A stretch of 64,000 bases of DNA, from the NCBI GenBank assembly GCA_963700305.1, contig CAVOXB010000027.1:320358-384357 (forward strand), read 5' to 3'. Positions 1 to 31,244 of the stretch are shown piece after piece. Each line of letters opens with the position of its first letter. The stretch's first letter is position 1. The position numbers were made by a program, and so were the translations under genes. The stretch is from an uncultured delta proteobacterium. GTDB lineage: Bacteria; Desulfobacterota; Desulfomonilia; Desulfomonilales; Desulfomonilaceae. The notes under the pieces are model-generated. The model was not told the origin of the DNA and did not search any database. It saw only the letters and a list, made by a program, of their open reading frames with translations.

Positions 1-1844
1 AGTTCGTGCAAAGCCCCCATAGACTTACCAAGCCTCTTATCCGCAAAGACGGCGAACTGCAAGAAGCATCGTGGGACGAAGCACTAGATTTTGCGGCCTC
101 CCGCCTCAAAGAAATAAAAGAAGCCCATGGCGGGGACAGCCTTGCTTTCTTGACATCAGCAAAATGCACGAATGAAGAAAATTACTTGCTTCAAAAATTC
201 TGCCGTGTGGGGTTCGGAACTAACAACATTGACCACTGCGCCCGTCTCTGACACTCCTCCACGGTGGCAGGTCTTGCCGCCGCTTTCGGAAGTGGAGCGA
301 TGACGAACTCGATCCCGGAGATAGAAGACGCTGAATGTATTTTTATAATAGGGTCCAACACAACCGTTGCCCATCCCCTTATCGCCTCAAGGGTCTATAA
401 GGCCAAAGCCAAAGGGGCCAAGATTATCGTAGCTGATCCGCGGCGAATTCAAATGGCCCACAACGCGGACATTTACGTCAAACAGAATCTCGGCTCGGAC
501 GTAGCCCTGCTAAATGGGATCATGAACGTAATCTTGTCTAAGGGCCTGCATGACAAAACATTCATAGAGGAACGCACTGAAGGCTTCGAGCAGCTCCAGG
601 AAGTGCTGAAGAATTATCCGCCGGAAAAAGCCTCCGAAATTTCGGGAGTCTCGGTCGAAGATGTTGTCCGCATTGCGGAAATGTACGCAGGAGCCGAAAG
701 CGCTTCGATCCTTTACACAATGGGCATCACTCAGCATACCCACGGCGTAGACAACGTAAAGAGTCTGGCCAATCTTGCCATGATGACGGGCAACCTGGGG
801 AAGCGCTCCTCAGGAGTAAACCCGCTTAGAGGCCAGAACAACGTGCAGGGTGCTTGTGACATGGGTGGATTGCCCAATGTCTATCCAGCGTATCAGGCTG
901 TGACTGACGAAGGAGTCAAGAAGAAGTTCCAGGATGCCTGGCAGGCACAGCTTTCCGCTAAGGTCGGAAAAACCATCATGGAAATGATGCACGACCTGGA
1001 AGAAGGTTCAATAAAAGGAATGGTCGTCATGGGAGAGAATCCGGTGGGTAGCGACCCCGACATGAACCACGTCAAACATGCCCTCAGCTCCGCCGAGTTT
1101 CTCCTGGTAATGGACATATTCCTTACGGACACGGCAAAGCTCGCTCATGTTGTGTTGCCGGGAGTTTCCTTCGCGGAAAAAGACGGCACTTTTTCAAATA
1201 CTGAACGAAATGTTCTGCGGGTCCGCAAAGCCGTGGAACCGGTCGGCGAGTCCAGACCCGACTGGGATATCATATGCGATCTATCGACCAGATTCGGGCT
1301 ACCCATGAACTATAGCTCGCCCAGCGAGATCTTTGACGAGATTGCCAAGGTGGCCCCCAGCTATGCTGGCCTGAATTATGAGCGTCTGGAAAAAGGACCG
1401 ATAGCTTGGCCATGCCCCACGCCGGATCATCCGGGAACACCCGTTCTGCATAAAGACCGGTTCACCAGAGGGAAGGGCCTGTTCCATGCGATTGAATACA
1501 GGCCTCCTGAAGAGCTCGCGGACGACGAATTCCCCATGCAGCTCACGACTGGTCGGTACTTCCCGCATTACCACACGGGCACGATGACAAGAAATTCGCC
1601 GACGCTGCATAGCGAAATGCCTGAAGGACACGTGGAAATTCACCCGGAAGATGCGGCCAGAATCGGACTTAAGAGCTACGATTTGGCCAAGGTGGTTTCG
1701 CGGCGTGGTGAAGTGGTTACGAAGGCCATAGTTACGGACATTATCAAACCAGGGAACATATTCATGAGCTTCCATTTCATGGAGGCCAACGCAAACGTGC
1801 TTACAAATGCAGCCCTAGATCCAATCAGCAAGATTCCCGAGTAA
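1..1844 (+). CDS. fdhA: Formate dehydrogenase alpha subunit (molybdopterin oxidoreductase), selenocysteine-containing. The 5' end lies outside the window. ORFs 6..251 and 264..1844 are one frame joined by the in-frame TGA at 249-251.
   Basis: Translation gives ...CRVGFGTNNIDHCARL-[TGA]-HSSTVAGLAAAFGSGAMTNS, the canonical Sec site of Fdh-H/FdnG-type enzymes. Downstream motifs are typical of the molybdopterin oxidoreductase family. The two ORFs are in the same frame (264-6=258, divisible by 3). Confidence 0.9.
249..300 (+). promoter_or_regulatory. Selenocysteine UGA codon (249-251) with a bacterial SECIS-like stem-loop immediately 3'
   Basis: About 11 nt after the UGA there is a hairpin CUCCAC-GGUGGC-AGGUCUU-GCCGCC..GUGGAG. 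Its apical loop contains GGUC, as in the E. coli fdhF SECIS. Confidence 0.6.
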
Positions 1845-2176: not shown

Positions 2177-2551
2177 GTGTACGAGTCGGCTCGTAAGTGG
2201 GCTGCTCGGGCTGGAGAAATTCATACCGAAGCGATACGAATTGGGTACTTCGGATCCTATGCGCGTGGAGAATGGGGGGTAGGAAGCGATTTGGATCTGA
2301 TTGCTGTTGTTACTCGCGGATCGGAACCGTTTGAGCGACGTTCCTTGGCATGGGATCTGGATGAACTTCCAGTTCCAGCAGAACTTCTTGTATACACCGC
2401 GACCGAATGGAAAGTGATTCAGGAGGAAGGCGGACGCTTTGCCAGGACTTTGAGCGAGGAGACAATATGGGTATACGACTATGCCCCCCCGCAGCCGAGC
2501 ATTCTTGACGATGTTATTGAGTGTTCTCCCGGCGGTTGGCCGACTTCATAA
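2177..2551 (+). CDS. Nucleotidyltransferase domain protein (MNT/Pol-beta superfamily, antitoxin-like), GTG start
   Basis: The GS-x9-DxD motif is present: IGYFGSYARGEWGVGSDLDLIAVV. An in-frame stop lies just upstream at 2147-2149. Confidence 0.6.
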   Translation: MYESARKWAARAGEIHTEAIRIGYFGSYARGEWGVGSDLDLIAVVTRGSEPFERRSLAWDLDELPVPAELLVYTATEWKVIQEEGGRFARTLSEETIWVYDYAPPQPSILDDVIECSPGGWPTS

Positions 2552-2561
2552 AGGCTTGCGG

Positions 2562-2786
2562 CTACATAACCACGCGGAACTCCATGCTGGTAAGATCGGG
2601 AATCCTGTTGGAAGCGTCCAGGATTTCCAGACTGACAAGATGTCCATTTTCGTCATAGTCCAAGATGACCCCAGGCTTGTCTTCATCGCTTTCTGATACT
2701 GGACCAGGCTTGAGGATCACGGTCAGTGTGTCGGTTTTTGTGTCAAGGGTGACGTTCATTGCTGTCTCCCAGTCACGGGTTCGCAT
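2562..2786 (-). CDS. DUF2283 family protein (74 aa) with no DUF4258 partner
   Basis: Small protein containing ...ILDYDENGHLVSLEILDAS, typical of DUF2283. Confidence 0.5.
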   Translation of the reverse strand: MRTRDWETAMNVTLDTKTDTLTVILKPGPVSESDEDKPGVILDYDENGHLVSLEILDASNRIPDLTSMEFRVVM

Positions 2787-2823
2787 AAGACGCGAGGTGC
2801 GATCCAGAAGAAGAATCCGTGCT

Positions 2824-3174
2824 TTAGGCGCTCACTACCTTTACGGAATAATGATCCGGTTTCATTTGTGCTGCAGGAACAATCACGTCGTTGAACCAAT
2901 TCTGAAAAGCTCTGTTTATGAGCTGTATTGCTTCTTCCCAGGAACCATCGTAATCGGATTCCTCAAGATCCTCGATAATCTCTGGTGTCAATCCCGAGAA
3001 TTCGGCGAGGTCTTCTCGAGACATGCGCAATTTATTGCGGATATCGTAGATTTGCCGGGCAAGATCAGCTTGCCTGCGGAGGAGTCCCACGCAGGCGATA
3101 CGCTCGGGATGTCCCTTGATGTATCGACTGTACGCCCATTCCAGCGCATCGTTACTGAATTTCTTTTCATCCAT
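2824..3174 (-). CDS. HTH (XRE-like) antitoxin, HigA-like
   Basis: 116 aa. It overlaps the upstream toxin gene by 8 nt and has a helix-turn-helix-like middle region (MSREDLAEFSGLTPEIIEDLE). Confidence 0.55.
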   Translation of the reverse strand: MDEKKFSNDALEWAYSRYIKGHPERIACVGLLRRQADLARQIYDIRNKLRMSREDLAEFSGLTPEIIEDLEESDYDGSWEEAIQLINRAFQNWFNDVIVPAAQMKPDHYSVKVVSA

Positions 3175-3547
3175 CGTCCGATTCCCAATTGAAGGTATGA
3201 GATTCCGGGTCCGCGTGATGTCTGGCCCATTTCACTTTAGCTCGTTTGATCTCGATAGGTGGGACCCTCTTGACGTCCTTGTGGAATCCATGCGTTATGA
3301 TTGCTGTTTCTCTTTCGTAGAAGAAGTGTAACATACGCAGGCGGACTTTCTTTACTCGCGCTCTCAATTCCCAGATTCCATCTCCAAGATGTTCGGTTGC
3401 AGGGAATCCGAGTTCATACACCTGGTCGCGCAATCTCTCGAGCCGTTCATAACACGCGTCCGGCTCTTCATCAGATAGCTTGTCGAGCCAATCCTGAATG
3501 GGGACTTTATCTCTTTCCTGATAGAATAGGACTCGAACTGATGGCAA
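3167..3547 (-). CDS. RelE/ParE-superfamily toxin (Gp49/HigB-like)
   Basis: 126 aa. The sequence ...WELRARVKKVRLRMLHFFYERETAIITHGFHKD resembles the phage Gp49-like HigB toxin family. Gene order is toxin first, then HTH antitoxin. Confidence 0.6.
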   Translation of the reverse strand: MPSVRVLFYQERDKVPIQDWLDKLSDEEPDACYERLERLRDQVYELGFPATEHLGDGIWELRARVKKVRLRMLHFFYERETAIITHGFHKDVKRVPPIEIKRAKVKWARHHADPESHTFNWESDDG

Positions 3548-3629
3548 TGGTTCATCGCTCGCGAGTTCTCATTATACCGAAAGAGCAGTCAAATCCAAGA
3601 TCCGCTTTCTGGGTTGCGCCGACAGGGGA

Positions 3630-4817
3630 TTACATAGGCTTCTGGGCCCAGCGATAGACCTTTTCAGCGGCTTTGAAGTGATTGGGAGAATTGAGGACGA
3701 CCACCATGTGCTCTTTGTCTTTGTCCTTGAACAGGGCAACTATGCACCTGCCTGCCAAGTTGGTGAATCCCGTTTTTGCTCCAACAAGCGGCAAATTCTT
3801 GGTAAGTAGCTTATCATTGGAGACTAGAGCGTAATCACGGGGGGTAGAATTTCGGGTTCGCATGGTATGGGTCCGGGTGCTGCTGATTTTGGATATCAGC
3901 TGATTCTTGAAAGCAGCTCGCGCAATTATGGCCACGTCTTCCGCACTTGCCATATTGGCCTTGCGGGCCTCAAGATAACGGCCGTCTTTTCGGCCAAGCG
4001 TCATTTTGCTGTCCAACCCACTGGGAGTGTGGAAACTCATCTTGGACGCACCTAGCTTAAAGGCTTTTCTGTTCATGGCTGCAATAAAACCGTCTCTGCC
4101 GCCGCTGGGATACGCTCTGGCAAGAGTCTCGGCACAATCGTTTCCCGATTCGATAAGCAACCCGTGGAGCAGATCTCTGACCGAGAGCTGATCACCTGCC
4201 TTGAGCCCCACGACGTGGCGTTCAACCTGCCCTATGTCTTCCGGGACTTCGATAACTTTGTCCAGGTCCATTTCTTCGACGACAATCATTGCGGTAACGA
4301 GCTTGCTGATGCTTGCAATGGGCAGTGGGGCGCACGTGTTTTCCGCCAACATAACCTTGTTTGATGAGCAATCCACACAATAGAGGGCTTTCGCCTTGAC
4401 GGGCGGCCTATAGCCGTTCAAACCTTTCGCCCCTCCTGCCGCTGACAATGTCTTCCCATGCCAGGACGGTTGGACGCTGGCTGATTTTAAGGGCGAGACG
4501 CTGGCGAGTCGTTCGGTGTTCGCACTGAGCTTCTGGGCCGGCATTGCGATAAGGTTTTTCGGCTTGGCAGGGAGACTGGGTTTTTTTGATTGGGTGAGAC
4601 GATTCGCACGTTGAATCGGAAGCGACTTCTCCGGCACTTTTTTCTCGTGAATTGAAACTTGCTGACGCTGAGGTTGCGGTTTAACAACCGCTCCCGGAGG
4701 AGACGCGTTCATCATTTCGCTAATGGATATCGCAGAACGAACCGGTTCCAGAGCGAATACGACGCCTCCGTTCAACAACAGCAGTCCCAGTGAAAATGCC
4801 AGAAACTTGAGGAACAA
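3630..4817 (-). CDS. D-alanyl-D-alanine carboxypeptidase (peptidase S11, PBP5/6-like) with a Pro/Lys-rich linker
   Basis: N-terminal signal peptide. SxxK motif (ASISKLVTAM) and SGN motif (LIESGNDCAETLA) are both present. Confidence 0.75.
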   Translation of the reverse strand: MFLKFLAFSLGLLLLNGGVVFALEPVRSAISISEMMNASPPGAVVKPQPQRQQVSIHEKKVPEKSLPIQRANRLTQSKKPSLPAKPKNLIAMPAQKLSANTERLASVSPLKSASVQPSWHGKTLSAAGGAKGLNGYRPPVKAKALYCVDCSSNKVMLAENTCAPLPIASISKLVTAMIVVEEMDLDKVIEVPEDIGQVERHVVGLKAGDQLSVRDLLHGLLIESGNDCAETLARAYPSGGRDGFIAAMNRKAFKLGASKMSFHTPSGLDSKMTLGRKDGRYLEARKANMASAEDVAIIARAAFKNQLISKISSTRTHTMRTRNSTPRDYALVSNDKLLTKNLPLVGAKTGFTNLAGRCIVALFKDKDKEHMVVVLNSPNHFKAAEKVYRWAQKPM

Positions 4818-11012: not shown

Positions 11013-11991
11013 ATGGCCGTTAGCAACAACGGTAAACTGGTAATAGTTACCGGAGGTGCTGGATTTATTGGAAGTCATCTGGTTGAAGGTCTCCTGGAGA
11101 AAGGAGAGAAAGTCAGGGTTCTGGACGATCTGAGCACCGGAAAAGAAGAAAATCTTCATAATCTCGGCAACAGCCGCTGGCAAATGGGACGAGATTTCGA
11201 GTTTGTAAAGGGCGACATAAGAGATGCGGATACGGTAGATAATGCAGTCAGAGGTGTTGACGCAATTTTGCACCAGGCGGCCTTGGGAAGCGTTCCCAGA
11301 TCAGTCGCTGATCCGCTGACAACTCAGGGGGTCAACGCCGGACGGGACCTTGCAGGTGTTTTGGGCGGCTCACAATCATGGAGTCTCCAGAGTAGTGTAC
11401 GCTTCGTCGTCTTCGGTTTATGGAGACAGCGAGCTGCTGCCGAAAAGGGAAGGCGAAGAAGGCCAACCGCTGTCTCCTTACACGCTGACCAAAAAGGTCA
11501 ATGAGGAATTCGGCAAATTATTTAATAGCCTGTACGGCGTTGAGACCATTGGATTACGCTATTTTAATGTATATGGCCCCAGACAAGATCCCACATCCGC
11601 GTATGCCGCTGTTATACCCAGATTCTTGACCGCGTTGCTTTCCGGAAATCCGCCTGTGATCTACGGAAGTGGCGAACAGAGCCGAGATTTCACATATGTC
11701 AAAGATGTGGTCGACGCGAACCTCCTGGCATTGGACGCTCCTGACTCAGCATGTGGGGCTGCATACAATATAGGGCGCGGGGACCAGGTGGACCTCTTGC
11801 ATCTTTTGGAAACGCTCCAAAAGCTTCTCGGCACGGACATCAAGCCCATATTCGATCCTCCAAGGCCGGGTGATGTCATGCATTCCTCCGCGGACACTTC
11901 CCGCGCGGAAAAGATGCTGGGATTCAAAGCGACAAACGACCTGATGTCCGGTCTGGAAAAAAGCATTCACTGGTATAAGGAGAATCTCTGA
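11013..11991 (+). pseudogene. NAD-dependent sugar epimerase/dehydratase (UDP-GlcNAc/UDP-Glc 4-epimerase, WbpP/TviC-like) disrupted by a +1 frameshift near 11343
   Basis: N-terminal frame: VIVTGGAGFIGSHLVEGL...HQAALGSVPRSVADPLTTQGVNAG. It then continues in the +1 frame as GTLQVFWAAHNHGVSRVVYASSSSVYGD...YxxxK. Removing one C from 'gccggaCggg' restores a contiguous protein. Confidence 0.75.
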
Positions 11992-16299: not shown

Positions 16300-16583
16300 T
16301 ACTGGAAACTGAAATCACGGAAACAACTCTCAGAGTAGGTAACCAATTAGGGATTCACGCAAGAGTGGCTACCATGATGGTTCAGGCTATGCAAAATTAT
16401 ACCTGCCAGGTTACGTTGGTGAAAGATGGTGTGGAAGTTGATGCCCGAAGTGTGCTAGGATTATTGCTTTTAGCCGCCACACCAGGAAGTGAACTTGTCG
16501 TACCAGCACACGGCCCGGATTCCAGGCAAGCAATTCAGGAGATAAGCCGACTTATACAAGATGAAGAGACCGAAGAAGGTTGA
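16296..16583 (+). CDS. ptsH: Phosphocarrier protein HPr
   Basis: 95 aa. MILETEITETTLRVGNQLGIHARVATMMVQ contains the active-site His15 context (GIHARVA). Confidence 0.85.
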   Translation: MILETEITETTLRVGNQLGIHARVATMMVQAMQNYTCQVTLVKDGVEVDARSVLGLLLLAATPGSELVVPAHGPDSRQAIQEISRLIQDEETEEG

Positions 16584-16635
16584 CAAGAAAAAATCCCGGA
16601 CGCCCAAAGTAAGCGAAAACGATACCAACAGGTTG

Positions 16636-18394
16636 ATGAGGGGGATTGGAGTATCCGGAGGTGTGGGAATAGGCCAAGCTGTCGTAATCGAACGCCTTAC
16701 CACGGAAATATGCCCCAAGCGCATCCTCAATCCCGAGGAAGTGCCTCTCGAGATTTCACGATTCGAAGCTGCCGTAGAAACCGCCGCAGAACGAATAAAA
16801 GCCATTAAGGGGCACATAGACCCGCATCATCCTCTGGGTGAGCACGCGTACATTCTTGATACTCACATTTTGCTCCTTAAGGACAAGATGTTTTATGAAG
16901 GCACAAAGAAGGCCATAGACGCGGAACGACAGAACGCGGAATGGGCTGTATCCGAAATAGTCATGAAAATCACGTCCGCGTTCGATACAATTGAAGACGA
17001 ATACCTGAAGGAGCGAGCGCGAGACATTTATTTTATTGGTGAGCGCGTCCTGCGAATACTGATGGGTATTTCTACGGAAAGTAAGATCCATCAGCTTCCC
17101 CCTAATTCCGTCATAATATCTCATGATCTATCACCTGCTGATACGGCGCAGATAAAAAGAGAGTGCGTGCTTGGCTTTGCCATAGACATGGGAGGACGCA
17201 CGTCTCACACCGCCATCATGGCGCGGTCCTTGAAAATTCCCGCCATAACCGGTTTGGAGAGCATCAGCGGTCAAGTCCAGACAGGTGACACGATAGTCAT
17301 AGACGGCAGTACCGGTATTGTGATCATCAATCCCGACCCTGAAATGATTTTCAGGTACAGGGAAAGGCAGGAGCTATACAAAAAATATCAGCAGTCTTTG
17401 ATGGCCTACGGCAGATTGCCTGCGGTCACTCGCGACGGTTCCAGAACAGTTAGGATCTCCGCTAATATCGAATTGGTGGATGAGCTTGAATTCGCAAAAA
17501 GCCACGGAGCGGAAGGCATAGGGCTTTTTCGGTACTGAATACCTGTTCTTGGGCAGGCCTGATCTGCCTTCGGAAGAGGAACAGTTTGAAGTCTATCGCC
17601 AGGTGTTGAAGGAGAATGCTCCCAATCCTGTGACAATTCGAACTCTGGACATCGGCGGAGACAAGATCGCCATAAGCGTGGGCGTCTCACATGAGACCAA
17701 CCCGGCAATGGGATTGAGGGCGATCCGACTCTGCCTGAACCGCCCGGATATTTTCAAGACTCAACTCAGGGCAATTCTCAGGGCCGCCGTTGATGGTGAG
17801 TGCCGGCTCTTGATTCCAATGGTCTCCTGTCTTACGGAACTCGTGACCACGAAACAGCTGCTGGAAGAGGCAAAAAAAGACCTGGATTCCGATGGTCTAC
17901 CGTATGCCCAGCACCTCAAGTTGGGGATTCTGGTTGAGGTACCTTCCGCTGTCGCCATTGCGGACATTCTGGCGAAGAATGTAGATTTCTTTAGTATCGG
18001 AACAAACGATCTGATTCAGTACGCTCTGGCCATTGACAGAGTCAACGAGCACGTAAATTACCTTTATGACACCCTTCATCCTGCCGTTCTAAGGCTGATT
18101 CGCCAAATAGTGAGTGCAGCGCAGGCTGGAGGCATTCCTGTGTCCATGTGCGGTGAAATGGCCGGCGATCCGGTCAACATTCCTATTCTCTTGGGTCTCG
18201 GGATTGACGAGCTTTCCATGAACGCCCTAGCCATCCCTATGGTAAAGAAGCTGATTCGAGCCATCAGCATGGACGAATGCAGAGAACTCACATGGCAGGC
18301 CTTTCAATTTTACGACGCCCGGGAAATCCACGGGTTCCTTGAGTCCTGGATCACAGAACGTTTCCCCAAAGACTATTTCATAGACCAGTCCTAG
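16636..18394 (+). pseudogene. ptsI: Phosphoenolpyruvate-protein phosphotransferase (PTS enzyme I) split by a +1 frameshift at about 17533
   Basis: ORF 16561..17538 ends ...GAEGIGLFRY*. ORF 17549..18394 continues in the +1 frame as (TEYLF)LGRPDLPSEEEQ.... Canonical EI reads GIGLFRTEFLF. Deleting T17533 fuses the two frames. The catalytic His (GGRTSHTAIMARSL) and the PEP-binding C-terminal domain are both present. Confidence 0.85.
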
Positions 18395-19609: not shown

Positions 19610-22600
19610 TCATTCCTCCGCGCCTCGCGACTCCAACAGCCTGACGATTTCCCTGTTGTCCTCTTCCTCAGCCAACTGCAGAGCTGTATTGCCGTTAGCT
19701 GCCTCGGCATGTACGTCGGCTCCGCTGTCCAGGAGAAATCTCACTGTTTCGAGGTCTCCTTTCGCGGCCACAGCCATAAGCGTCGTCTTGCCGTCCTTGT
19801 CTCTTGCGTTCACGCTGGCGCCTCTGTTGACAAGGTGCTTCACGAGTTCGAGATTACCGGACAGGGCAGCGTACATGAGGACTGTGGAGCCGTCCTGGTC
19901 CTTGGCACTTACATCGGCGCCTTTTTCAAGCAAGGTTTTGACTTCTTCCAGGGAACCCTTCTTGGCTGCTTTCAATAGCTTATCATTGACTTCAGAGTAG
20001 GGCGTGCTTCGAATTGGAGGTCTGAAAATCACAATACCATAGGATGACGGGCCTAGTTCCCTGATTCGAATTTCATACGCTTTTTTTATGCACTGCGCAT
20101 CCTGACATTCATTGCGTTCATTCTCCAGCCATTGATTTTGGCTTTGAATCATTTCCTCTTTTTTCCTAGTTCGGTCGAGCACTTGCTGGTACGCCATAAC
20201 TAAGGAATTATCCAGCGTCAATAATTCATCACTGGCGCAGATTATCTTCTCTACTTCTGATCTCGCTTTTGAGCAATCAAAGCTTGCAGCGTGGATGTTT
20301 CCGCCAAATGCCCGCTTGCTATCTTGCGTTTGTGGCGCTGGTTGGGGTGGTTCAATTTTGAATTTGTTGAAATCTAAAACGCGCAAAGGCCCCGGGTTTC
20401 CTTGTGGCAATGGAACGCCCTTAGGGATAAAGAAGGCTGCTGGGTCGCTATCTAAACCTGCCGGGAATGTGAACGGCTTGAGGACCACGTACGTATTGTG
20501 AATTCCTGGACGCCTGGGCATTGCACGGGCTTGGCCGGCGATCCGTGGATCTGTTTTTGGTGCGTTGGCGATTTCTGCATTCACCCAGGCATCCGCATCG
20601 GCATCAGTAGCCTTGCGCAACAACCCTTTTCGAACCGCGTCCTTTAGACCTGCGCGGCCCGCCCGTGGCGCGGTCTTATCATAGAACGATTCTGGGGGAT
20701 TGGATTCAGAAGTAATGAGTTTTTCTCCTGCCGGTACAGGGTCGCCCACGACAGCCTTGCCATTCTTGGTCAGATAGACGAGATCCACGGGGTGCCCAAA
20801 GAGACGGCGTGACATAGGGTTGAACTCGAGGAGTTCCTTTTCTGCTTCGCCGACAACGGCATAACCACAAGGGCCCTTGTTGTCATAACTGGAATTCAGC
20901 ACAGGAACGTTAGCATCCAGACCGGCAACGGCCTGGCGATGATACCCGCTCACAAACACGGCTGCAATACGGGTGGCTGCAGTCCATTTGATATTCCAGA
21001 TAGTCGGTCCGTAAGCTCCGAGCATGATCACTACGGGCTTGGTGGAATAGTTCACCGTCACATCCATTTGAGTTGCTTGATTTCCGCTTTGGTCTATCTG
21101 GAAATGTAGTTTTCGTCGCGAATAGCCTCCTGCAGCAAATATTGCGTAATTCTCGGGAAGCGCCAGGCCTGGAAACTCGCAACCTTTTCTGGTTTGGTCC
21201 TCAGATAGCCCTTCCTGATCTTCCCCGAGTTCCTCAAGCGCCTTCTTGTATGCCTTGAGATGGTTGAAATTGTAAACAAACGAGTGCCCAGGATCCCCTT
21301 TTGGCTGTGGTACTCCCTCCGGGACGAAAAGGTTTGCCAAGTGGCCACCATAGAGCCCTGCTGGGTAAGAGAACGGCTTCAGTACAACATACGCATCCCA
21401 TGTATGGGGACGCGGGGGCTTGGGGCGGCCTTTTCCGGCAATCAATGGCACATCTCGATCAGGTCCGTTGGCTATCAGCGCATCAACCCAAGCGTCAGCA
21501 TCCGCTTCCGTCGCTTTACGCAAGAACCCTTTCCGAACAGCGTCCTCCAAACCAGCCGGGCCAGCAATTGGTGCTGTCGTGTCATGGAAGGATTCCGGGG
21601 AATTGGATTCTGAAGTAATGAGTTTTTCTCTCGCCGGTACGGGGTCGCCTATGACAACTTCGCCATTCTTGGCTGGATAAACCAGATCCACGGGGCGTCC
21701 GAATAGATTACGTGATATCTGGTTTATCTTTTCAGAATTTTCTCGTTGTCCGACATAGAAATATCCACAGGGACAAGGTCCTCGGTCGGCAGAACTCGAA
21801 TTCAGCACGGGGACAGTGGCATCGAGACCGGCAATAGCCTGGTGGTGATACCCGCTTACGAGCACACCAATGATGCGGGTGGTCGCAGTCCATTTGATGT
21901 TCCAGATCGTCGGTTCGTACGCTCCGAGCATCAATACGATAGGTTTGGAGGAATAGTTCACCGTCACATCCATTTGAGTCGCTTGATGCCCGCTCTGGTC
22001 TATTTGGAAATCCAGCGTTCGTCCCGAATAGCCTCCTGCAGCGAATATTGCATAACTCTCGGGAAGCGCCAGACCTGCAAACTCACAGGTTTTCTTGCGA
22101 TGATCCACAGATTGTCGTTTCCGCTCCTCTTCCTTTTTGTAATCAGGGGCGGAAGCAGCGTCAGAAGGCAGGGTGGATTGAGTGGTCAGATGACATTTGC
22201 TGATCTTCTCGATTGCACGGGGAATAGCTTGGCTCGCCTCACTCCATCTCGGAGGTTCACCCGGATGCAGCGCCCAAGACACCTCTTTCACGAGTTTAAC
22301 AGTCTCAAGCTGATGCTTAAGGGCACTAAGAGCCTTCTCCTGGCTCTTAGCAGACATGCGGCAGACGACGGAATCGCCGTAATCATATTCGCCGCCCAAG
22401 ATCTCAACCACAGTGCGTAGTGTGGTTAGTCTCTTCAGCCCTATCAGGAGATCGTCAAGATTTTGCTCCAGGAGAGTGATGCGTGGATCTGCGGCAGAAT
22501 CCTTGTTTTTGGCAGAATCCTTGTCTCTGACAGATTCATCATCTGCGTCAGAATCACCTTCTGGGCCAGAATCAATATCTCTATAGAAACTGGAAAGAGA

Positions 22601-23263
22601 GTGTGCGGCACTGGCTCTCACTTTGGGATCCGGGTCATGCGCCATTGCTTTGATCAACAATGGCACAGAATGATCACCACTCATGAAAGAAGCCGCCTTT
22701 GCCCTCACCACTGGAGAAGGATCTCTCAATCCAATTTCGTTGTATTTGTCCCTTTCCGGATGACCTTGCTGATTGATTACTTCCAGCGCCTTTTGTCGTT
22801 CGGTTGCCGACTTGCTATTGAGGAAACTCGCCGTCTGGTCCTCAGCAAGCGCTGGATCGACCCTATAGTAATGACAATCCATCCCGAGGTTACCGGCGAA
22901 CGCTTCGTTACGAGTCCTGAAGCCCGAGACGCGTAATCCGTCCTGCACGGAATTGGGATCATCCTGCTTCGAGCCCTCCAGCCGGACAAAGGGCAGATAG
23001 CAGTCTGATGAGGAGATTTCAAGAAGGACATGTTGCTCGTCAGCTTCGACAACTGTGTAGGGGACATTTTTACTCTTGCACTCATCCCAGGTTATGTTCT
23101 CTTTCCGCAGGACTATGATGGAAGTCATGCAGGCGCGGGATTCTCCCTGATATGTTCCGATAAAAGACGGCGGCACTTCTGCGCCGAAAGCCACTGAGGA
23201 GACGGCAAGCGCCAGAAGAATGGCCAAAAGCAGCACCCTATCAGAAGTAGAACTCATGACCAC
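19610..23263 (-). CDS. Large secreted multi-domain protein (1217 aa): signal peptide, HEAT/PBS-lyase repeats, two tandem ~330-aa repeats of an unrecognised domain, an LprI/DUF1311-like domain, and C-terminal ankyrin repeats
   Basis: Signal peptide MVMSSTSDRVLLLAILLALAVSSVAFGA. HEAT-like segment DPSPVVRAKAASF...HDPDPKVRASAAHSL. Duplicated module CEFAGLALPE(S/N)YAIFAAGGYS...TQMDVTVNYS. DUF1311-like segment FDCSKARSEVEKIICASDELLTLDNSLVMAYQQVL...WLENERNEC. Ankyrin repeats DGSTVLMYAALSGNLELVKHLVNRGASVNARDKDGKTTLMAVAAKGDLETVRFLLDSGADV. Confidence 0.7.
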   Translation of the reverse strand: MVMSSTSDRVLLLAILLALAVSSVAFGAEVPPSFIGTYQGESRACMTSIIVLRKENITWDECKSKNVPYTVVEADEQHVLLEISSSDCYLPFVRLEGSKQDDPNSVQDGLRVSGFRTRNEAFAGNLGMDCHYYRVDPALAEDQTASFLNSKSATERQKALEVINQQGHPERDKYNEIGLRDPSPVVRAKAASFMSGDHSVPLLIKAMAHDPDPKVRASAAHSLSSFYRDIDSGPEGDSDADDESVRDKDSAKNKDSAADPRITLLEQNLDDLLIGLKRLTTLRTVVEILGGEYDYGDSVVCRMSAKSQEKALSALKHQLETVKLVKEVSWALHPGEPPRWSEASQAIPRAIEKISKCHLTTQSTLPSDAASAPDYKKEEERKRQSVDHRKKTCEFAGLALPESYAIFAAGGYSGRTLDFQIDQSGHQATQMDVTVNYSSKPIVLMLGAYEPTIWNIKWTATTRIIGVLVSGYHHQAIAGLDATVPVLNSSSADRGPCPCGYFYVGQRENSEKINQISRNLFGRPVDLVYPAKNGEVVIGDPVPAREKLITSESNSPESFHDTTAPIAGPAGLEDAVRKGFLRKATEADADAWVDALIANGPDRDVPLIAGKGRPKPPRPHTWDAYVVLKPFSYPAGLYGGHLANLFVPEGVPQPKGDPGHSFVYNFNHLKAYKKALEELGEDQEGLSEDQTRKGCEFPGLALPENYAIFAAGGYSRRKLHFQIDQSGNQATQMDVTVNYSTKPVVIMLGAYGPTIWNIKWTAATRIAAVFVSGYHRQAVAGLDANVPVLNSSYDNKGPCGYAVVGEAEKELLEFNPMSRRLFGHPVDLVYLTKNGKAVVGDPVPAGEKLITSESNPPESFYDKTAPRAGRAGLKDAVRKGLLRKATDADADAWVNAEIANAPKTDPRIAGQARAMPRRPGIHNTYVVLKPFTFPAGLDSDPAAFFIPKGVPLPQGNPGPLRVLDFNKFKIEPPQPAPQTQDSKRAFGGNIHAASFDCSKARSEVEKIICASDELLTLDNSLVMAYQQVLDRTRKKEEMIQSQNQWLENERNECQDAQCIKKAYEIRIRELGPSSYGIVIFRPPIRSTPYSEVNDKLLKAAKKGSLEEVKTLLEKGADVSAKDQDGSTVLMYAALSGNLELVKHLVNRGASVNARDKDGKTTLMAVAAKGDLETVRFLLDSGADVHAEAANGNTALQLAEEEDNREIVRLLESRGAEE

Positions 23264-28910: not shown

Positions 28911-29252
28911 TCATCTCTCTTCCGCAAGAACTGACTTTGTTTCTTCTTCAAGAATTGGGATCTTATCTTGGATTGCCGTCCATGCAGTCTCCAGGTTCAC
29001 TCCGAAATATTCGTGGATAAGTATGTTACGAAACCCAATGATTTTTGCCCACTCGACATCGAGGTATAGAGACTTGACGTCCTGCGGTAGACGATTCGCT
29101 GCCTCCCCTATGACTTCGAAGTTCCGGATGACTGCGTCTTGGGTCTTGAGGTCAGCCTGGAATTCTTCAAATGACATTCATTCAGTAAACCTCCGAATCT
29201 TCCGGCAAGATTCGAGGATGTCATCGAGATAGAGCCTAAAGTCCCGGGGCAT
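28911..29252 (-). pseudogene. hepT: HepT-like toxin (HEPN/DUF86) copy 1, interrupted by an in-frame TGA at 29178-29180
   Basis: The minus strand reads MPRDFRLYLDDILESCRKIRRFTE-[TGA]-MSFEEFQADLKTQDAVIRNFEVIGEA...RNILIHEYFGV (the Rx4HxY HEPN motif). The paralog at 30209-30556 has YTAGFSYEQF at the equivalent position. The start overlaps the mntA stop by 17 nt. Confidence 0.7.
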
Positions 29253-29535
29253 AAATGGTCTCCTCCAGGATGGCGGTGCGTATTCTCGGCTTTATGGTGT
29301 CTGAGATGACGAGATCAACTGGTCGTTCAAACAGTCCTTCCAAAAAAAATTTCAGATCGAAATAGTTGTCAAATGTGGCGCTCTCGAATTCCACGAGGAA
29401 ATCCATGTCGCTGGCCTCTGTTTGCTGATCGTGGGCGTACGATCCGAAAAATCCGAGGCGACGCACTCCGAAGCCACGAATCATTTCCAGATTCTCCTCA
29501 AGCCTGCGTAAGATTTCGTCGCGGTTCACTTCCAT
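29236..29535 (-). CDS. mntA: MntA-like nucleotidyltransferase antitoxin copy 1 (intact)
   Basis: 99 aa. RRLGFFGSYAHDQQTEASDMDFLVEF shows the GSxxxxxx...DxD minimal nucleotidyltransferase motif. Confidence 0.75.
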   Translation of the reverse strand: MEVNRDEILRRLEENLEMIRGFGVRRLGFFGSYAHDQQTEASDMDFLVEFESATFDNYFDLKFFLEGLFERPVDLVISDTIKPRIRTAILEETIYAPGL

Positions 29536-29576
29536 TGCCTCAATCTATTTCTAGCTAAGAAATACTTGTCAAATTT

Positions 29577-30212
29577 TCACAAAACTGCTCGGATCAGTTC
29601 TTTGAGAAGAACGGAGTCTTTCGCAGAAATCGAGAATATTTCAAAGCCTGCGGCCGAGATGTCCAGGTCCTCACCTGGCTCTACCCATTTAAAAAAGGCT
29701 TCCAAGCGTATCTCGTCTGTATCGAGCAGATCCTCCGGATGAATGGCGATGGTGATTCTTTCTCCTGTCCGCACGCCGAGCCCCATGACGCACCCGCCTT
29801 TTTCATTTATGTCAATAAGTAACCCCGGCGGAAGCTGCGGACAGTCGATACAGGAAACAGGTAGGAGTCGCTTCAAGGGATATCGTGGAGTTGACCTTTT
29901 GTCATCGGTTTCAACTTCGTAATCGTAGAGGATGGGCCTCCAGTAAACGTCACTTGAGCTGACCGCGCCCTCACGGATAAGACTTAAAAGCCTTCTTCTC
30001 AGTTCAGCCGCAGTAATTCGATACTTCTCCATGAGCTCCAAATCGGTCATGCTGCTCCCAAGGTCACTTATGAATAAGTCTTCTGCACGCTCCATGATTT
30101 GAGACTCCGTTTCTTTCGCAGAACTACTCTTAGCATACTGGAGATATTCATTGATCGCCATTGTTTTGAGCAATCGCGCGATCTTTGGGGCGCTCTGCCG
30201 GCTCCGTATCAC
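29577..30212 (-). CDS. Hypothetical protein with a possible C-terminal PilZ-like (c-di-GMP-binding) domain and an N-terminal HTH-like segment. Co-oriented with hepT copy 2, with a 4-nt overlap.
   Basis: RSTPRYPLKR (RxxxR) followed about 25 aa later by DINEKGGCVMGLGV, which resembles the PilZ (D/N)xSxxG motif with S replaced by N. Assignment is tentative. Confidence 0.4.
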   Translation of the reverse strand: MIRSRQSAPKIARLLKTMAINEYLQYAKSSSAKETESQIMERAEDLFISDLGSSMTDLELMEKYRITAAELRRRLLSLIREGAVSSSDVYWRPILYDYEVETDDKRSTPRYPLKRLLPVSCIDCPQLPPGLLIDINEKGGCVMGLGVRTGERITIAIHPEDLLDTDEIRLEAFFKWVEPGEDLDISAAGFEIFSISAKDSVLLKELIRAVL

Positions 30213-30556
30213 TCCTTTGGTTCGAGAATGCGTTGCACGCTATCTCTAACCCGCGGCAGATCGTTTTGAATTATCTTCCAGATCACATCGAGCTTGATCC
30301 CGAAATACTGGTGCACAATAATGTCTCTTAATCCGGCCATATCTCGCCACGGAACCTCAGGATAGTGGGAACGTATTTCTTCTGGGATGTTTTTCGTTGC
30401 TTCTCCAATAATTTGAAGGTTCCACACTACTGCTTCAACAGTCTTTTGATCGGCAGCGAATTGCTCATACGAGAATCCCGCTGTGTATCCTAAGACTTTT
30501 CCGGAGGCTTCCAGAATATCGTCCAGGAATACTCTATAATCCCTCGGCATAAACAA
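30209..30556 (-). CDS. hepT: HepT-like toxin (HEPN/DUF86) copy 2 (intact, 115 aa)
   Basis: MFMPRDYRVFLDDILEASGKVLGYTAGFSYEQF...RDIIVHQYFGI (Rx4HxY). Confidence 0.8.
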   Translation of the reverse strand: MFMPRDYRVFLDDILEASGKVLGYTAGFSYEQFAADQKTVEAVVWNLQIIGEATKNIPEEIRSHYPEVPWRDMAGLRDIIVHQYFGIKLDVIWKIIQNDLPRVRDSVQRILEPKE

Positions 30557-30827
30557 CCTCGTTAAGGATGATTGGTCTGAGCCTCGGCTTCACTGCGTCC
30601 GCAAAAACAAGATCCACGGAACAGCCAAACAGCTGCTCAAGGAACTCTTTCAGGTTCAAGTAGTTTTGGAGCGTAGCATCATAGAACTCCACCAGGAAGT
30701 CTATGTCGCTGGACTGTTTCTCTTCGCCACGCGGCATACGAACCAAAGACACCTAGGCGATGCACTCCGAAACCTCGGATGGCCTCACGATTCTCCTCTA
30801 ACGTTTTCAGGATGATGTCGGAAGTCA
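30534..30827 (-). pseudogene. mntA: MntA-like nucleotidyltransferase antitoxin copy 2, with a frameshift (1-nt insertion near 30730)
   Basis: Upstream frame: MTSDIILKTLEENREAIRGFGVHRLGVFGSYAAWRR. ORF frame: (R)MPRGEEKQSSDIDFLVEF.... The expected contiguous sequence is ...GVFGSYARGEEKQSSDIDFLVEF. Confidence 0.7.
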
Positions 30828-31244
30828 TAGCGATGATCTCCGAATCACATCATGGTTGTCCGGATCATGTTGCCAATGGGATGGATGTTCCTCAAAGTAT
30901 TTTCGACTAGCGTGCAAGCCTTTTCCTTCCGGACGACGTGTTCGTAATAGTTGCGTTGCCAGGGTTTCGCGCTCTATTGATCCCCATAATTCGTATTCAG
31001 GTGTCGAATAAATTCATTGGTCATCACCGTTTTGAAGCATGCACGATCTTTGGTAGGGGGTCACCCGCGTGTGCGCCCGAATCTGAGCAGACGCGTGGGT
31101 CTGCCTCTACCCCTGGGATTATGCCATGAAAATGGTTGGTTGGGCATAATCACATAAGCATCACTCTCATAGTGGAAATTTGTTCTTCTAGCGTCTTACA
31201 CGAATGAAATTTTCATACTTGAAATACAAAGACACGCATTGTTC

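What the first reader, a model, noticed from the sequence alone, without database searches (positions are those of the whole stretch)
28911..30827. Two tandem MntA/HepT modules, each with one partner inactivated, flanking a PilZ-like gene
Module 1 has an intact MntA antitoxin, and its HepT toxin carries an in-frame TGA at 29178. Module 2 has an intact HepT toxin, and its MntA antitoxin is frameshifted near 30730. An intact toxin whose own AMPylating antitoxin is broken should be lethal unless the intact MntA of module 1 cross-neutralises it. This would be a rare naturally 'rewired' trans-acting pair. Embedded between them, with a 4-nt overlap with hepT-2, is a 211-aa protein with PilZ-like motifs (RxxxR ... 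DINEKGG). This hints at c-di-GMP input to the locus.
Basis: partly seen in the sequence, partly recalled or inferred. Interest (0 to 1): 0.6.

Follow-up and report, generated by a model that had tools for sequence, protein, structure and literature searches.

The report
Two damaged HepT/MntA modules beside PilZ
Two ordinary toxin-antitoxin gene pairs, each carrying a single-base defect, sit on either side of an unrelated, independently conserved c-di-GMP-receptor-type (PilZ) gene. The defects are most likely assembly error and/or routine gene decay, not a rewired circuit.

Summary
The sequence facts are mostly right. On the minus strand lie mntA-1 (intact), hepT-1 (in-frame TGA at 29178-29180), a PilZ-domain gene, hepT-2 (intact ORF) and mntA-2 (one extra G at 30732, which splits the GSX10DXD motif). 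The PilZ gene is 172 aa, not 211 aa. It starts at ATG 30095, 113 nt after hepT-2, so there is no 4-nt overlap.

A sister genome (about 90% nt identity) has PilZ-mntA-1-hepT-1 with hepT-1 intact (GGA where the window has TGA). It lacks an 878-bp segment carrying module 2 and part of a decayed RAYT transposase relic. Twelve other PilZ-homolog loci show no adjacent MntA/HepT, so the PilZ link is accidental.

Both lesions are single-nucleotide events in otherwise well-conserved genes. The same window has two more +1 insertions, in PtsI and in an epimerase. Its relatives come from Nanopore-only MAGs, so an assembly artefact is the leading explanation for the mntA-2 frameshift.

If the frameshift is real, HepT-2 carries rare substitutions at two near-invariant positions (R43W, E46Q) and may already be attenuated. 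Trans-neutralisation by MntA-1 is not excluded but has no positive support (about 0.08).

Verdict: new members of a known kind, low interest.

The parts
28911..29252 (-). hepT-1, a class I HepT (DUF86/HEPN) toxin gene interrupted by an in-frame TGA at 29178-29180. An ATG follows immediately at 29175-29177, leaving an 88-aa ORF that keeps R75-x4-H80-x-Y82.
   Evidence: PF01934 E 4e-32; translation; orthologs P0033 and P0034 are intact 113-aa proteins with Gly at this codon; GGA in the sister versus TGA here; dN/dS 0.084.
29236..29535 (-). mntA-1, an intact 99-aa minimal nucleotidyltransferase antitoxin with GS-x10-DMD. It overlaps the hepT-1 start by 17 nt.
   Evidence: PF01909 E 1.3e-12; NF047752 44 bits, below the 60-bit cutoff; 93% nt identity to the sister ortholog, dN/dS 0.12; has H35 where the sister and 82% of relatives have R.
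29577..30095 (-). PilZ-domain gene, 172 aa. It has an N-terminal three-helix region and a C-terminal PilZ beta-barrel with invariant R67-x3-R71 and D95-x-N97-x-x-G100.
   Evidence: Homologs are 172-175 aa; 24 of 30 family members hit PF07238; AF2 model pLDDT 77.8; top Foldseek PDB hits are all PilZ domains; the start is fixed by DNA conservation.
30138..30188 (-). Right copy of a roughly 45-50-nt direct repeat (derived from the RAYT mid-region), lying upstream of pilZ at the edge of the indel.
   Evidence: 43 nt, 77% identity, E 0.01 in a self-comparison of 3.5 kb.
30209..30550 (-). hepT-2, an intact 113-aa HepT ORF with R75-DIIV-H80-Q-Y82. It has W43 and Q46 at positions that are R in 72/73 and E in 70/73 relatives.
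   Evidence: PF01934 E 1e-30; NF047751 48.8 bits, below the 60-bit cutoff; column counts; no other sequence at 90% identity or more in the 15-billion-protein collection.
30534..30828 (-). mntA-2, an MntA gene broken by one extra G at 30732, between the GS and DID of the GSX10DXD motif. The N-terminal 49-aa ORF ends at TGA 30679. The C-terminal part reads from ATG 30737 or GTG 30752.
   Evidence: With the base removed, all 18 columns conserved in 72 relatives are retained.
30848..31195 (-). Decayed REP-associated tyrosine transposase (RAYT/IS200-like) relic with stops and an insertion.
   Evidence: Translation; weak hit to NF047646, E 2.4e-5, 24 bits versus an 80-bit cutoff; no Pfam hit.
31002..31053 (-). 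Left copy of the direct repeat, lying inside the RAYT relic.
30194..31071 (.). 878-bp segment present here and absent from the syntenic sister locus L010. It contains the RAYT C-terminal part, mntA-2 and hepT-2.
   Evidence: blastn blocks window 34346-31072 = L010 5791-9046 and window 30193-27930 = L010 9059-11315; three-way junction alignment.

Best explanation
The locus holds two diverged class I HepT/MntA (type VII toxin-antitoxin) modules that happen to flank an unrelated, independently conserved PilZ gene in a Desulfomonilaceae-like metagenome-assembled genome.

Module 1 is older in this lineage. The sister genome has it in the same place, intact, and it evolved under purifying selection. 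Module 2 sits with a decayed RAYT transposase relic on an 878-bp presence/absence segment edged by short direct repeats.

I take the mntA-2 frameshift (one extra G) to be most likely a consensus error of a long-read assembly. In that case module 2 is a normal working pair: MntA-2 would oligo-AMPylate Tyr82 of HepT-2, inferred by homology with S. oneidensis and T. cleftensis HepT/MntA.

The hepT-1 TGA (a G-to-T change in a Gly codon) is either a very recent real nonsense mutation or a consensus error. Losing the toxin first is the harmless route of TA decay and would leave MntA-1 as an orphan antitoxin.

No rewiring and no c-di-GMP input is needed. The PilZ protein is a separate small c-di-GMP-receptor-type protein.

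Shown: gene identities, motifs, positions of the lesions, the indel, and the lack of conserved PilZ-TA linkage. Inferred: that the frameshift is an artefact, and the AMPylation mechanism.
For: 1. The family and motif assignments are solid (motifs as defined in PMC7641770).

2. Each lesion is a single nucleotide in an otherwise undecayed gene.
- hepT-1 differs from JGI protein P0034 only at the stop and one residue.
- hepT-1 has dN/dS 0.084 against the sister.
- Repaired MntA-2 keeps all 18 conserved columns.

3. The same 64-kb window has two more +1 insertions that break conserved genes.
- PtsI has an extra T at 17533, inside GIGLFRTE; the PEP-utilizers_C profile is split 7-47 / 55-291.
- An NAD-dependent epimerase has an extra G at 11340; the profile is split 1-92 / 98-240.

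4. The syntenic sister assembly has frameshifts in UbiA and in the sulfatase gene at sites where the window is intact. This is the pattern expected of random consensus indels.

5. PilZ relatives in GTDB genomes are Microflora Danica 'MFD...bin' MAGs with Flye-style contig names. That project is Nanopore-only, assembled with Flye and polished with one round of Medaka (PMC12313526). The sister contig is also named contig_9249.

6. In 70 of 70 related metagenome loci with upstream sequence, HepT has an intact MntA. A genuinely broken antitoxin beside an intact toxin is therefore rare.

7. PilZ is not part of the system.
- 12 of 13 other homolog loci have no adjacent MntA/HepT.
- Its start is 113 nt from hepT-2.
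- Module 2 is absent from the sister.
Against: - I could not retrieve the window's own record or reads. The sequencing technology of this contig is inferred from its relatives, not shown.
- The extra G is not in a homopolymer, the classic Nanopore error context.
- A G-to-T substitution that creates a stop is an unlikely consensus error.
- HepT-2 carries unusual residues at two near-invariant positions, which fits real decay of module 2 better than an intact working module.
- The complementary pattern (toxin dead in one module, antitoxin dead in the other) is what the rewiring idea predicts.
Confidence: 0.55

Rival explanations
1. Both lesions are real, and module 2 as a whole is decaying. HepT-2 was first weakened or inactivated by missense changes (R43W, E46Q on helix 2) or is not expressed. 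After that the mntA-2 frameshift was tolerated. Module 1 lost its toxin by a nonsense mutation. Under this reading there are two independent, ordinary TA pseudogenisations.
For: - HepT-2 has W where 72/73 relatives have R, and Q where 70/73 have E.
- Single substitutions outside the Rx4H motif abolish SO_3166 toxicity (PMC4621449).
- Helix 2 carries a second active-site element in HEPN domains (PMC3710099).
- Module 2 lies next to a decayed transposase relic on a variable segment.
- Toxin-first decay is the non-lethal order of events.
Against: - HepT-2 keeps E50, R75, H80, Y82 and 22 of the 26 columns that are at least 80% conserved among relatives.
- The role of R43 and E46 is unknown; they could be a co-varying pair.
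- mntA-2 shows no decay beyond the one base.
- The assembly has other single-base insertions in housekeeping genes.
Confidence: 0.25
2. Both lesions are real, HepT-2 is active, and it is kept in check in trans by the intact MntA-1. MntA-1 would AMPylate the Tyr of the shared Rx4HxY motif, making a natural hybrid type VII pair. A variant has a different MntA paralog elsewhere in the genome do this job.
For: - The pattern of lesions is complementary.
- MntA-1 and MntA-2 are 59% identical, with identical catalytic residues.
- The sequences around the acceptor Tyr are similar: FRNILIHEYFG versus LRDIIVHQYFG.
- Neutralisation is enzymatic (PMC7641770), which could be less partner-specific than stoichiometric binding (inference).
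- Antitoxin loss alone is lethal in S. oneidensis, and 70 of 70 relatives keep MntA. A real frameshift would therefore need some compensation.
Against: - There is no direct evidence of cross-reactivity, and no report of non-cognate MntA/HepT neutralisation was found in the two papers searched for it.
- The HepT proteins are only 41% identical.
- The window's MntA-1 has H35 at a position that is R in the sister and in 82% of relatives.
- The frameshift may be an artefact.
- HepT-2 may be attenuated.
Confidence: 0.08
3. The PilZ protein is a functional component of the locus. It would provide c-di-GMP control of one or both TA modules, for example through a pilZ-mntA-1-hepT-1 operon.
For: - pilZ and mntA-1 are only 41 nt apart on the same strand, in both the window and the sister genome.
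- No terminator-like site was found.
- The protein has a PilZ fold and an invariant RxxxR.
Against: - The adjacency is seen only in these two close relatives. Twelve other loci have the PilZ homolog without an adjacent MntA/HepT.
- There is no overlap with hepT-2.
- The pilZ-mntA-1 spacer evolves like neutral DNA, and its -35-like TTGACA is not conserved.
Confidence: 0.04
4. The in-frame TGA of hepT-1 is decoded (as selenocysteine, through a reassigned code, or by read-through), so HepT-1 is made full-length.
For: - The organism does use selenocysteine. A formate-dehydrogenase-like gene has TGA at 249-251 in the motif HCARL-U-HSS, followed by a hairpin with a GGUC loop.
- The aligned residue in relatives is Gly, as in genetic code 25.
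Against: - There is no SECIS-like hairpin after the hepT-1 TGA (MFE -8 kcal/mol, z +0.9).
- Orthologs have GGA (Gly), not Cys or Sec.
- TGA is the commonest ordinary stop codon in the window, at 17 of 34 genes with domain support.
- The G+C content is 50.7%.
Confidence: 0.01

Closest known systems
Class I HepT/MntA (HEPN/MNT) type VII toxin-antitoxin systems, e.g. S. oneidensis SO_3166/SO_3165 and T. cleftensis CL1_0071/0070 (PMC4621449, PMC7641770)
   Same: - A PF01909 minimal nucleotidyltransferase gene lies directly upstream of, and overlaps, a PF01934 HEPN gene.
- MntA-1 has GSX10DXD, and so does repaired MntA-2.
- Both HepT proteins have RX4HXY.
- The small size (about 99 and 113 aa) resembles the archaeal and Thermus minimal forms. 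The closest solved structure to MntA-1 is 1WOT.
   Different: - Scores fall below the NCBIfam equivalog cutoffs: 44-54.5 bits against 60.
- One partner of each pair is interrupted in the sequence as assembled.
- HepT-2 has W43 and Q46 at near-invariant positions.
- No activity data exist.
Single-domain and small PilZ c-di-GMP receptors (MotI/DgrA 5VX6, Alg44 PilZ 4RT0, YcgR 5Y6G, MapZ 5XLY)
   Same: - The C-terminal six-strand beta-barrel matches these structures best (Foldseek probability 1.00, E down to 2.6e-5).
- The RxxxR motif is invariant, and a DxNxxG motif lies 23 residues downstream.
   Different: - The Ser of (D/N)xSxxG is Asn in 29 of 30 family members.
- The window's own protein gives no Pfam PilZ hit at E of 1 or better.
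- The N-terminal roughly 45-aa three-helix region is not YcgR-N. It gives only insignificant HTH-like hits (GntR in 4/30, best E 0.019).
- The family appears restricted to Desulfomonilaceae-like bacteria.
Orphan antitoxins and cross-talk between paralogous TA modules ('anti-addiction', as described for chromosomal ccd versus F-plasmid ccd; from my own knowledge, not checked here)
   Same: An intact antitoxin without its own toxin lies next to a related toxin. This is the arrangement in which trans-protection has been proposed for type II systems.
   Different: Nothing here shows cross-protection. For the enzymatic type VII systems I found no report of non-cognate neutralisation.
REP-associated tyrosine transposases (RAYT, IS200/IS605-like Y1 transposases)
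   Same: The relic upstream of mntA-2 retains YVIMPN... and WQRNYYEH-like motifs and gives a weak hit to NF047646.
   Different: It is heavily decayed, with stops, an insertion and an N-terminal truncation. It scores far below the family cutoff and gives no Pfam hit.

Membership tests
Class I HepT/MntA type VII TA (as defined in PMC7641770) | A PF01934 (or PF08780) HEPN gene neighbouring a PF01909 MNT gene | tested here: met
   HepT-1 scores 110.8 bits and HepT-2 106.2 bits on PF01934. MntA-1 scores 48.4 bits and the MntA-2 C-terminal fragment 33 bits on PF01909. All are above the gathering cutoffs.
Class I HepT/MntA type VII TA | RX4HXY motif in the toxin | tested here: met
   HepT-1 has R75-NILI-H80-E-Y82 and HepT-2 has R75-DIIV-H80-Q-Y82. 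R, H and Y are invariant in 73 relatives.
Class I HepT/MntA type VII TA | GSX10DXD motif in the antitoxin, encoded in one reading frame | tested here: not met
   Met for MntA-1 (GS-YAHDQQTEAS-DMD). Not met for MntA-2 as assembled: GS lies in the ORF 30679-30828 and DID in the ORF 30534-30752. The motif is restored only by deleting G 30732.
Class I HepT/MntA type VII TA | Full-length toxin ORF | tested here: not met
   Met for HepT-2 (113 aa). Not met for HepT-1, which has a TGA at codon 25.
Class I HepT/MntA type VII TA | Score above the NCBIfam equivalog cutoffs (NF047751 HepT_toxin, NF047752 MntA_antitoxin; 60 bits) | tested here: not met
   Scores are 54.5 and 48.8 bits (HepT) and 44 and 46.5 bits (MntA). 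These are members of the broader Pfam families, not equivalogs of the characterised proteins.
Class I HepT/MntA type VII TA | HepT is a toxic RNase, and MntA neutralises it by oligo-AMPylation of the motif Tyr | not testable with these tools
   This needs toxicity and rescue assays and mass spectrometry.
PilZ domain c-di-GMP receptors (PF07238) | Match to the Pfam PilZ model | tested here: inconclusive
   The window protein gives no hit at E of 1 or better. However, 24 of 30 family members (50-79% identical to it) do hit, with best E 1.9e-7.
PilZ domain c-di-GMP receptors | PilZ beta-barrel fold | tested here: met
   AF2 model with pLDDT 77.8; residues 78-155 mostly score 82-94. The top 31 Foldseek PDB hits are all PilZ-domain structures.
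PilZ domain c-di-GMP receptors | RxxxR and (D/N)xSxxG c-di-GMP-binding motifs | tested here: inconclusive
   RxxxR is present and invariant (R67, R71). The second motif is DxNxxG, with Asn in place of Ser in 29 of 30 members. Ligand binding was not tested.
REP-associated tyrosine transposase (NF047646) | Score above the family cutoff, with intact HUH and Tyr motifs | tested here: not met
   The score is 24 bits against a cutoff of 80. The region has stops and an insertion. It is a relic only.

The most novel reading that the evidence does not exclude
Both lesions are genuine and HepT-2 is an active RNase. The cell would then survive because the orphan MntA-1 of the neighbouring module (59% identical to the broken MntA-2) AMPylates HepT-2 in trans. 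That would be a naturally formed hybrid type VII toxin-antitoxin pair, showing that enzymatic antitoxins can serve non-cognate toxins.
Probability: 0.08. Interest if true: 0.55.

Novelty: new member of a known kind. Interest (0 to 1): 0.2.

Why it matters
As it stands the finding matters little. HepT/MntA is among the most abundant TA families, damaged copies are common, and long-read MAGs carry single-base errors that mimic pseudogenes.

The useful outcomes are practical:
- The locus shows how a 'complementary lesion' pattern can arise from assembly noise plus ordinary decay.
- The PilZ neighbour is a separate gene, conserved in Desulfomonilaceae-like bacteria, with an unusual DxNxxG motif.
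- Comparison with the sister genome pins module 2 to an 878-bp presence/absence segment next to a transposase relic.

If reads confirmed both lesions and HepT-2 proved toxic, the locus would be a cheap natural test of whether AMPylating antitoxins act across paralogous modules. I found no report addressing that question.

Tried and rejected
- Selenocysteine or an alternative code at the hepT-1 TGA: rejected. There is no SECIS hairpin, orthologs have GGA, and TGA is the commonest stop codon.
- Programmed frameshifting at mntA-2: rejected on sight. The site UAU GCC GCG UGG has no slippery run or stimulator. This was not modelled further.
- Recent tandem duplication of one module: rejected. Identity is 41-59% at the protein level, and only 66-118-nt stretches of the two modules align, at 72-74%.
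- Conserved PilZ-TA linkage: rejected.
- Retrieving the window's own contig or record: failed.
- Exact-DNA scan of metagenome contigs around the TGA, to look for population variants: no match. The protein-based scan found only relatives at 81% identity or less, so there are no population data for the lesion.
- PDB sequence searches: none for HepT-2 or the PilZ profile; only 1WOT for MntA-1.
- tblastn of the transposase relic against plasmids: no match. Pfam also gave no hit.
- Promoter and terminator scan: no better than shuffled sequence.
- Supplementary tables of the Microflora Danica paper, to tie ERZ25039527 to that project: not held.
- Literature search for non-cognate MntA/HepT neutralisation: nothing found.
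Full report
**What is in the sequence**

Window 28911-30828 carries five genes, all on the minus strand. In the direction of transcription they are:
- mntA-2 (30828-30534)
- hepT-2 (30550-30209)
- a PilZ-type gene (30095-29577)
- mntA-1 (29535-29236)
- hepT-1 (29252-28911)

Pfam assigns both toxins to PF01934 (HepT-like; 110.8 and 106.2 bits). It assigns MntA-1 and the C-terminal part of MntA-2 to PF01909. In both modules the toxin start lies 17 nt inside the 3' end of the antitoxin gene and has its own Shine-Dalgarno sequence.

The motifs that define class I HepT/MntA (PMC7641770) are present:
- RX4HXY in the toxins: RNILIHEY in HepT-1 and RDIIVHQY in HepT-2.
- GSX10DXD in the antitoxins: GS-YAHDQQTEAS-DMD in MntA-1 and GS-YARGEEKQSS-DID in repaired MntA-2.

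The NCBIfam equivalog models for HepT and MntA are hit, but below cutoff: 44-54.5 bits against 60. The two modules are old paralogs, with MntA 59% and HepT 41% identical.

**The two lesions**

- hepT-1 reads ...RRFTE-TGA-MSFEEF..., with the stop at 29178-29180. The codon aligns with GGA in module 2 and in the sister ortholog. In 73 relatives this column is Gly in 42, Asp in 15 and Asn in 9.
- mntA-2 has one extra G at 30732 (GCC-G-CGT). This places GS and DID of the catalytic motif in different ORFs.

**The middle gene**

The 211-aa ORF is an over-extension.
- All 30 database relatives align from Met40 onwards and are 172-175 aa, or carry unrelated N-terminal extensions.
- Against a 79%-identical relative, DNA conservation starts about 30 nt before ATG 30095, at GAAACGGAG, and is absent upstream of that.
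- The gene is therefore 172 aa and lies 113 nt downstream of hepT-2. The 4-nt overlap does not exist.

The PilZ call itself is correct.
- 24 of 30 family members hit PF07238.
- An AlphaFold model (pLDDT 77.8) has a C-terminal barrel whose best PDB matches are all PilZ domains: MotI/DgrA, Alg44, YcgR, PlzA and MapZ.
- R67-x3-R71 is invariant. The second motif is DxNxxG rather than DxSxxG in 29 of 30 members.

The N-terminal three-helix part has no significant family match.

**Context from relatives**

- An exact-sequence look-up showed that the 88-aa HepT-1 fragment clusters with two intact 113-aa proteins. One of them lies on a syntenic contig from a sister genome, L010, at about 90% nt identity over more than 13 kb.
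- The order there is Band_7 - RAYT relic - PilZ - MntA (99 aa) - HepT (113 aa, intact) - a 175-aa membrane protein.
- Window 30194-31071 (878 bp) has no counterpart in the sister. This segment carries the C-terminal part of the RAYT relic, mntA-2 and hepT-2.
- The segment is edged by two copies of a roughly 45-nt repeat derived from the relic: 31002-31053 and 30138-30188, 77% identical. Whether it was deleted in the sister or inserted here cannot be decided.
- In 12 other loci carrying PilZ homologs, no MntA/HepT is adjacent. One locus has an unrelated pair 5 kb away and another has one 2 kb away.
- The PilZ-TA adjacency is therefore specific to this small lineage, and there is no case for c-di-GMP input.
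- Between the window and the sister, dN/dS is 0.084 for hepT-1, 0.12 for mntA-1 and 0.065 for pilZ. hepT-1 was thus under purifying selection until very recently.

**Are the lesions real?**

I could not reach the reads or even the source record, so the evidence is indirect.

Points favouring an artefact for the frameshift:
- The same window has two more single-base insertions that break conserved genes. One is an extra T at 17533 inside the GIGLFRTE motif of PTS enzyme I. The other is an extra G at 11340 in an NAD-dependent epimerase. Both were recognised because the Pfam profile continues across the frame change.
- The sister assembly has frameshifts in UbiA and the sulfatase gene where the window is intact.
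- The GTDB genomes holding PilZ relatives are Microflora Danica MAGs with Flye-style contig names. That project used Nanopore-only assemblies with one round of Medaka polishing (PMC12313526). The sister contig has the same naming style.
- Repaired MntA-2 retains all 18 conserved columns.
- In 70 of 70 related metagenome loci, HepT has an intact MntA upstream.

Points against an artefact:
- The site is not a homopolymer.
- The technology of this particular contig is inferred, not shown.

The TGA is a substitution, which is a rarer type of consensus error. Toxin loss is also harmless, so I rate it more likely real than not.

**If the frameshift is real**

Antitoxin-only deletion could not be obtained in S. 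oneidensis (PMC4621449), so some compensation would be needed. Two routes exist.

- HepT-2 may already be weakened. It has Trp43 where 72 of 73 relatives have Arg, and Gln46 where 70 of 73 have Glu. It keeps Glu50, Arg75, His80 and Tyr82. Single substitutions outside Rx4H abolish toxicity in SO_3166. Helix 2 contributes to the HEPN active site (PMC3710099).
- HepT-2 may be neutralised in trans by MntA-1 or by another paralog. Nothing tests this here, and I found no report of non-cognate neutralisation in this family. The window's MntA-1 has His35 where the sister and 82% of relatives have Arg.

**Rejected readings of the TGA**

The organism does use selenocysteine. A formate-dehydrogenase-like gene has TGA at 249-251 in the motif HCARL-U-HSS, followed by a GGUC-loop hairpin. 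The hepT-1 TGA has no such hairpin. TGA is also the commonest ordinary stop codon, at 17 of 34 genes.

**Verdict**

The locus consists of two ordinary class I HepT/MntA modules beside an unrelated PilZ gene.
- The antitoxin frameshift is most likely an assembly error (about 0.55).
- Otherwise it is part of ordinary decay of a weakened module (about 0.25).
- The rewired trans-acting pair remains possible but unsupported (about 0.08).
- c-di-GMP control is not supported (about 0.04).

These are new members of a known kind, of low interest unless reads confirm both lesions.

Noticed in passing
window 3-1844 (+), TGA at 249-251: A molybdopterin oxidoreductase (formate-dehydrogenase-like) gene has an in-frame TGA in the motif HCARL-U-HSSTVAG. 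The TGA is followed by a hairpin with a GGUC apical loop, which looks like a bacterial SECIS. This is a probable selenocysteine codon, so the organism decodes Sec.
   Followed up: partly
window 16561-18394 (+), extra T at 17533: PTS enzyme I (PtsI) is split into two ORFs by a single-base insertion inside the conserved GIGLFRTE motif, in an otherwise intact EIID-HPr-EI cluster. This is probably an assembly error.
   Followed up: partly
window 11013-11991 (+), extra G at 11340: An NAD-dependent epimerase/dehydratase is split into two ORFs by a single-base insertion. The Pfam profile reads 1-92 in one frame and 98-240 in the next.
   Followed up: partly
window 30848-31195 (-): This is a decayed REP-associated tyrosine transposase (RAYT/IS200-like) relic between the flotillin (Band_7) gene and mntA-2. 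A roughly 45-nt piece of it is repeated upstream of pilZ, at 30138-30188.
   Followed up: yes
window 2177-3547: There are further TA-like genes here. A 124-aa NTP_transf_2 protein (2177-2551, +) is followed by a 175-aa ORF with no family hit (2665-3192, +). On the other strand lie a Gp49/HigB-like toxin (3167-3547, -) and a weak HTH partner (2824-3174, -).
   Followed up: no
L010 2520-3480 and 12297-14757 (sister contig ERZ25039527 contig_9249): The sister assembly has UbiA split into 73 + 225 aa and the sulfatase split into 663 + 124 aa by single-base indels. The window has intact ORFs of 319 and 841 aa at these places. This is consistent with long-read consensus errors.
   Followed up: partly
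JGI sample 3300075153, contig of P0005 (no DNA available), locus coordinates 3418-4218: About 2 kb upstream of another PilZ homolog, an NTP_transf_2 gene is followed by a HepT-like gene that is called as two ORFs (51 + 78 aa). This looks like another interrupted HepT.
   Followed up: no
window 29359-29374 and 29559-29574: A 16-nt direct repeat, GAAATA(G/C)TTGTCAAAT (15 of 16 identical), occurs once in the pilZ-mntA-1 spacer and once inside mntA-1. It is probably a chance match (E 0.44 in the self-comparison).
   Followed up: no
window 19610-23263 (-): This is a 1217-aa protein with HEAT repeats, an LprI-like domain and C-terminal ankyrin repeats. That is unusual for a bacterium. It was not examined further.
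   Followed up: no
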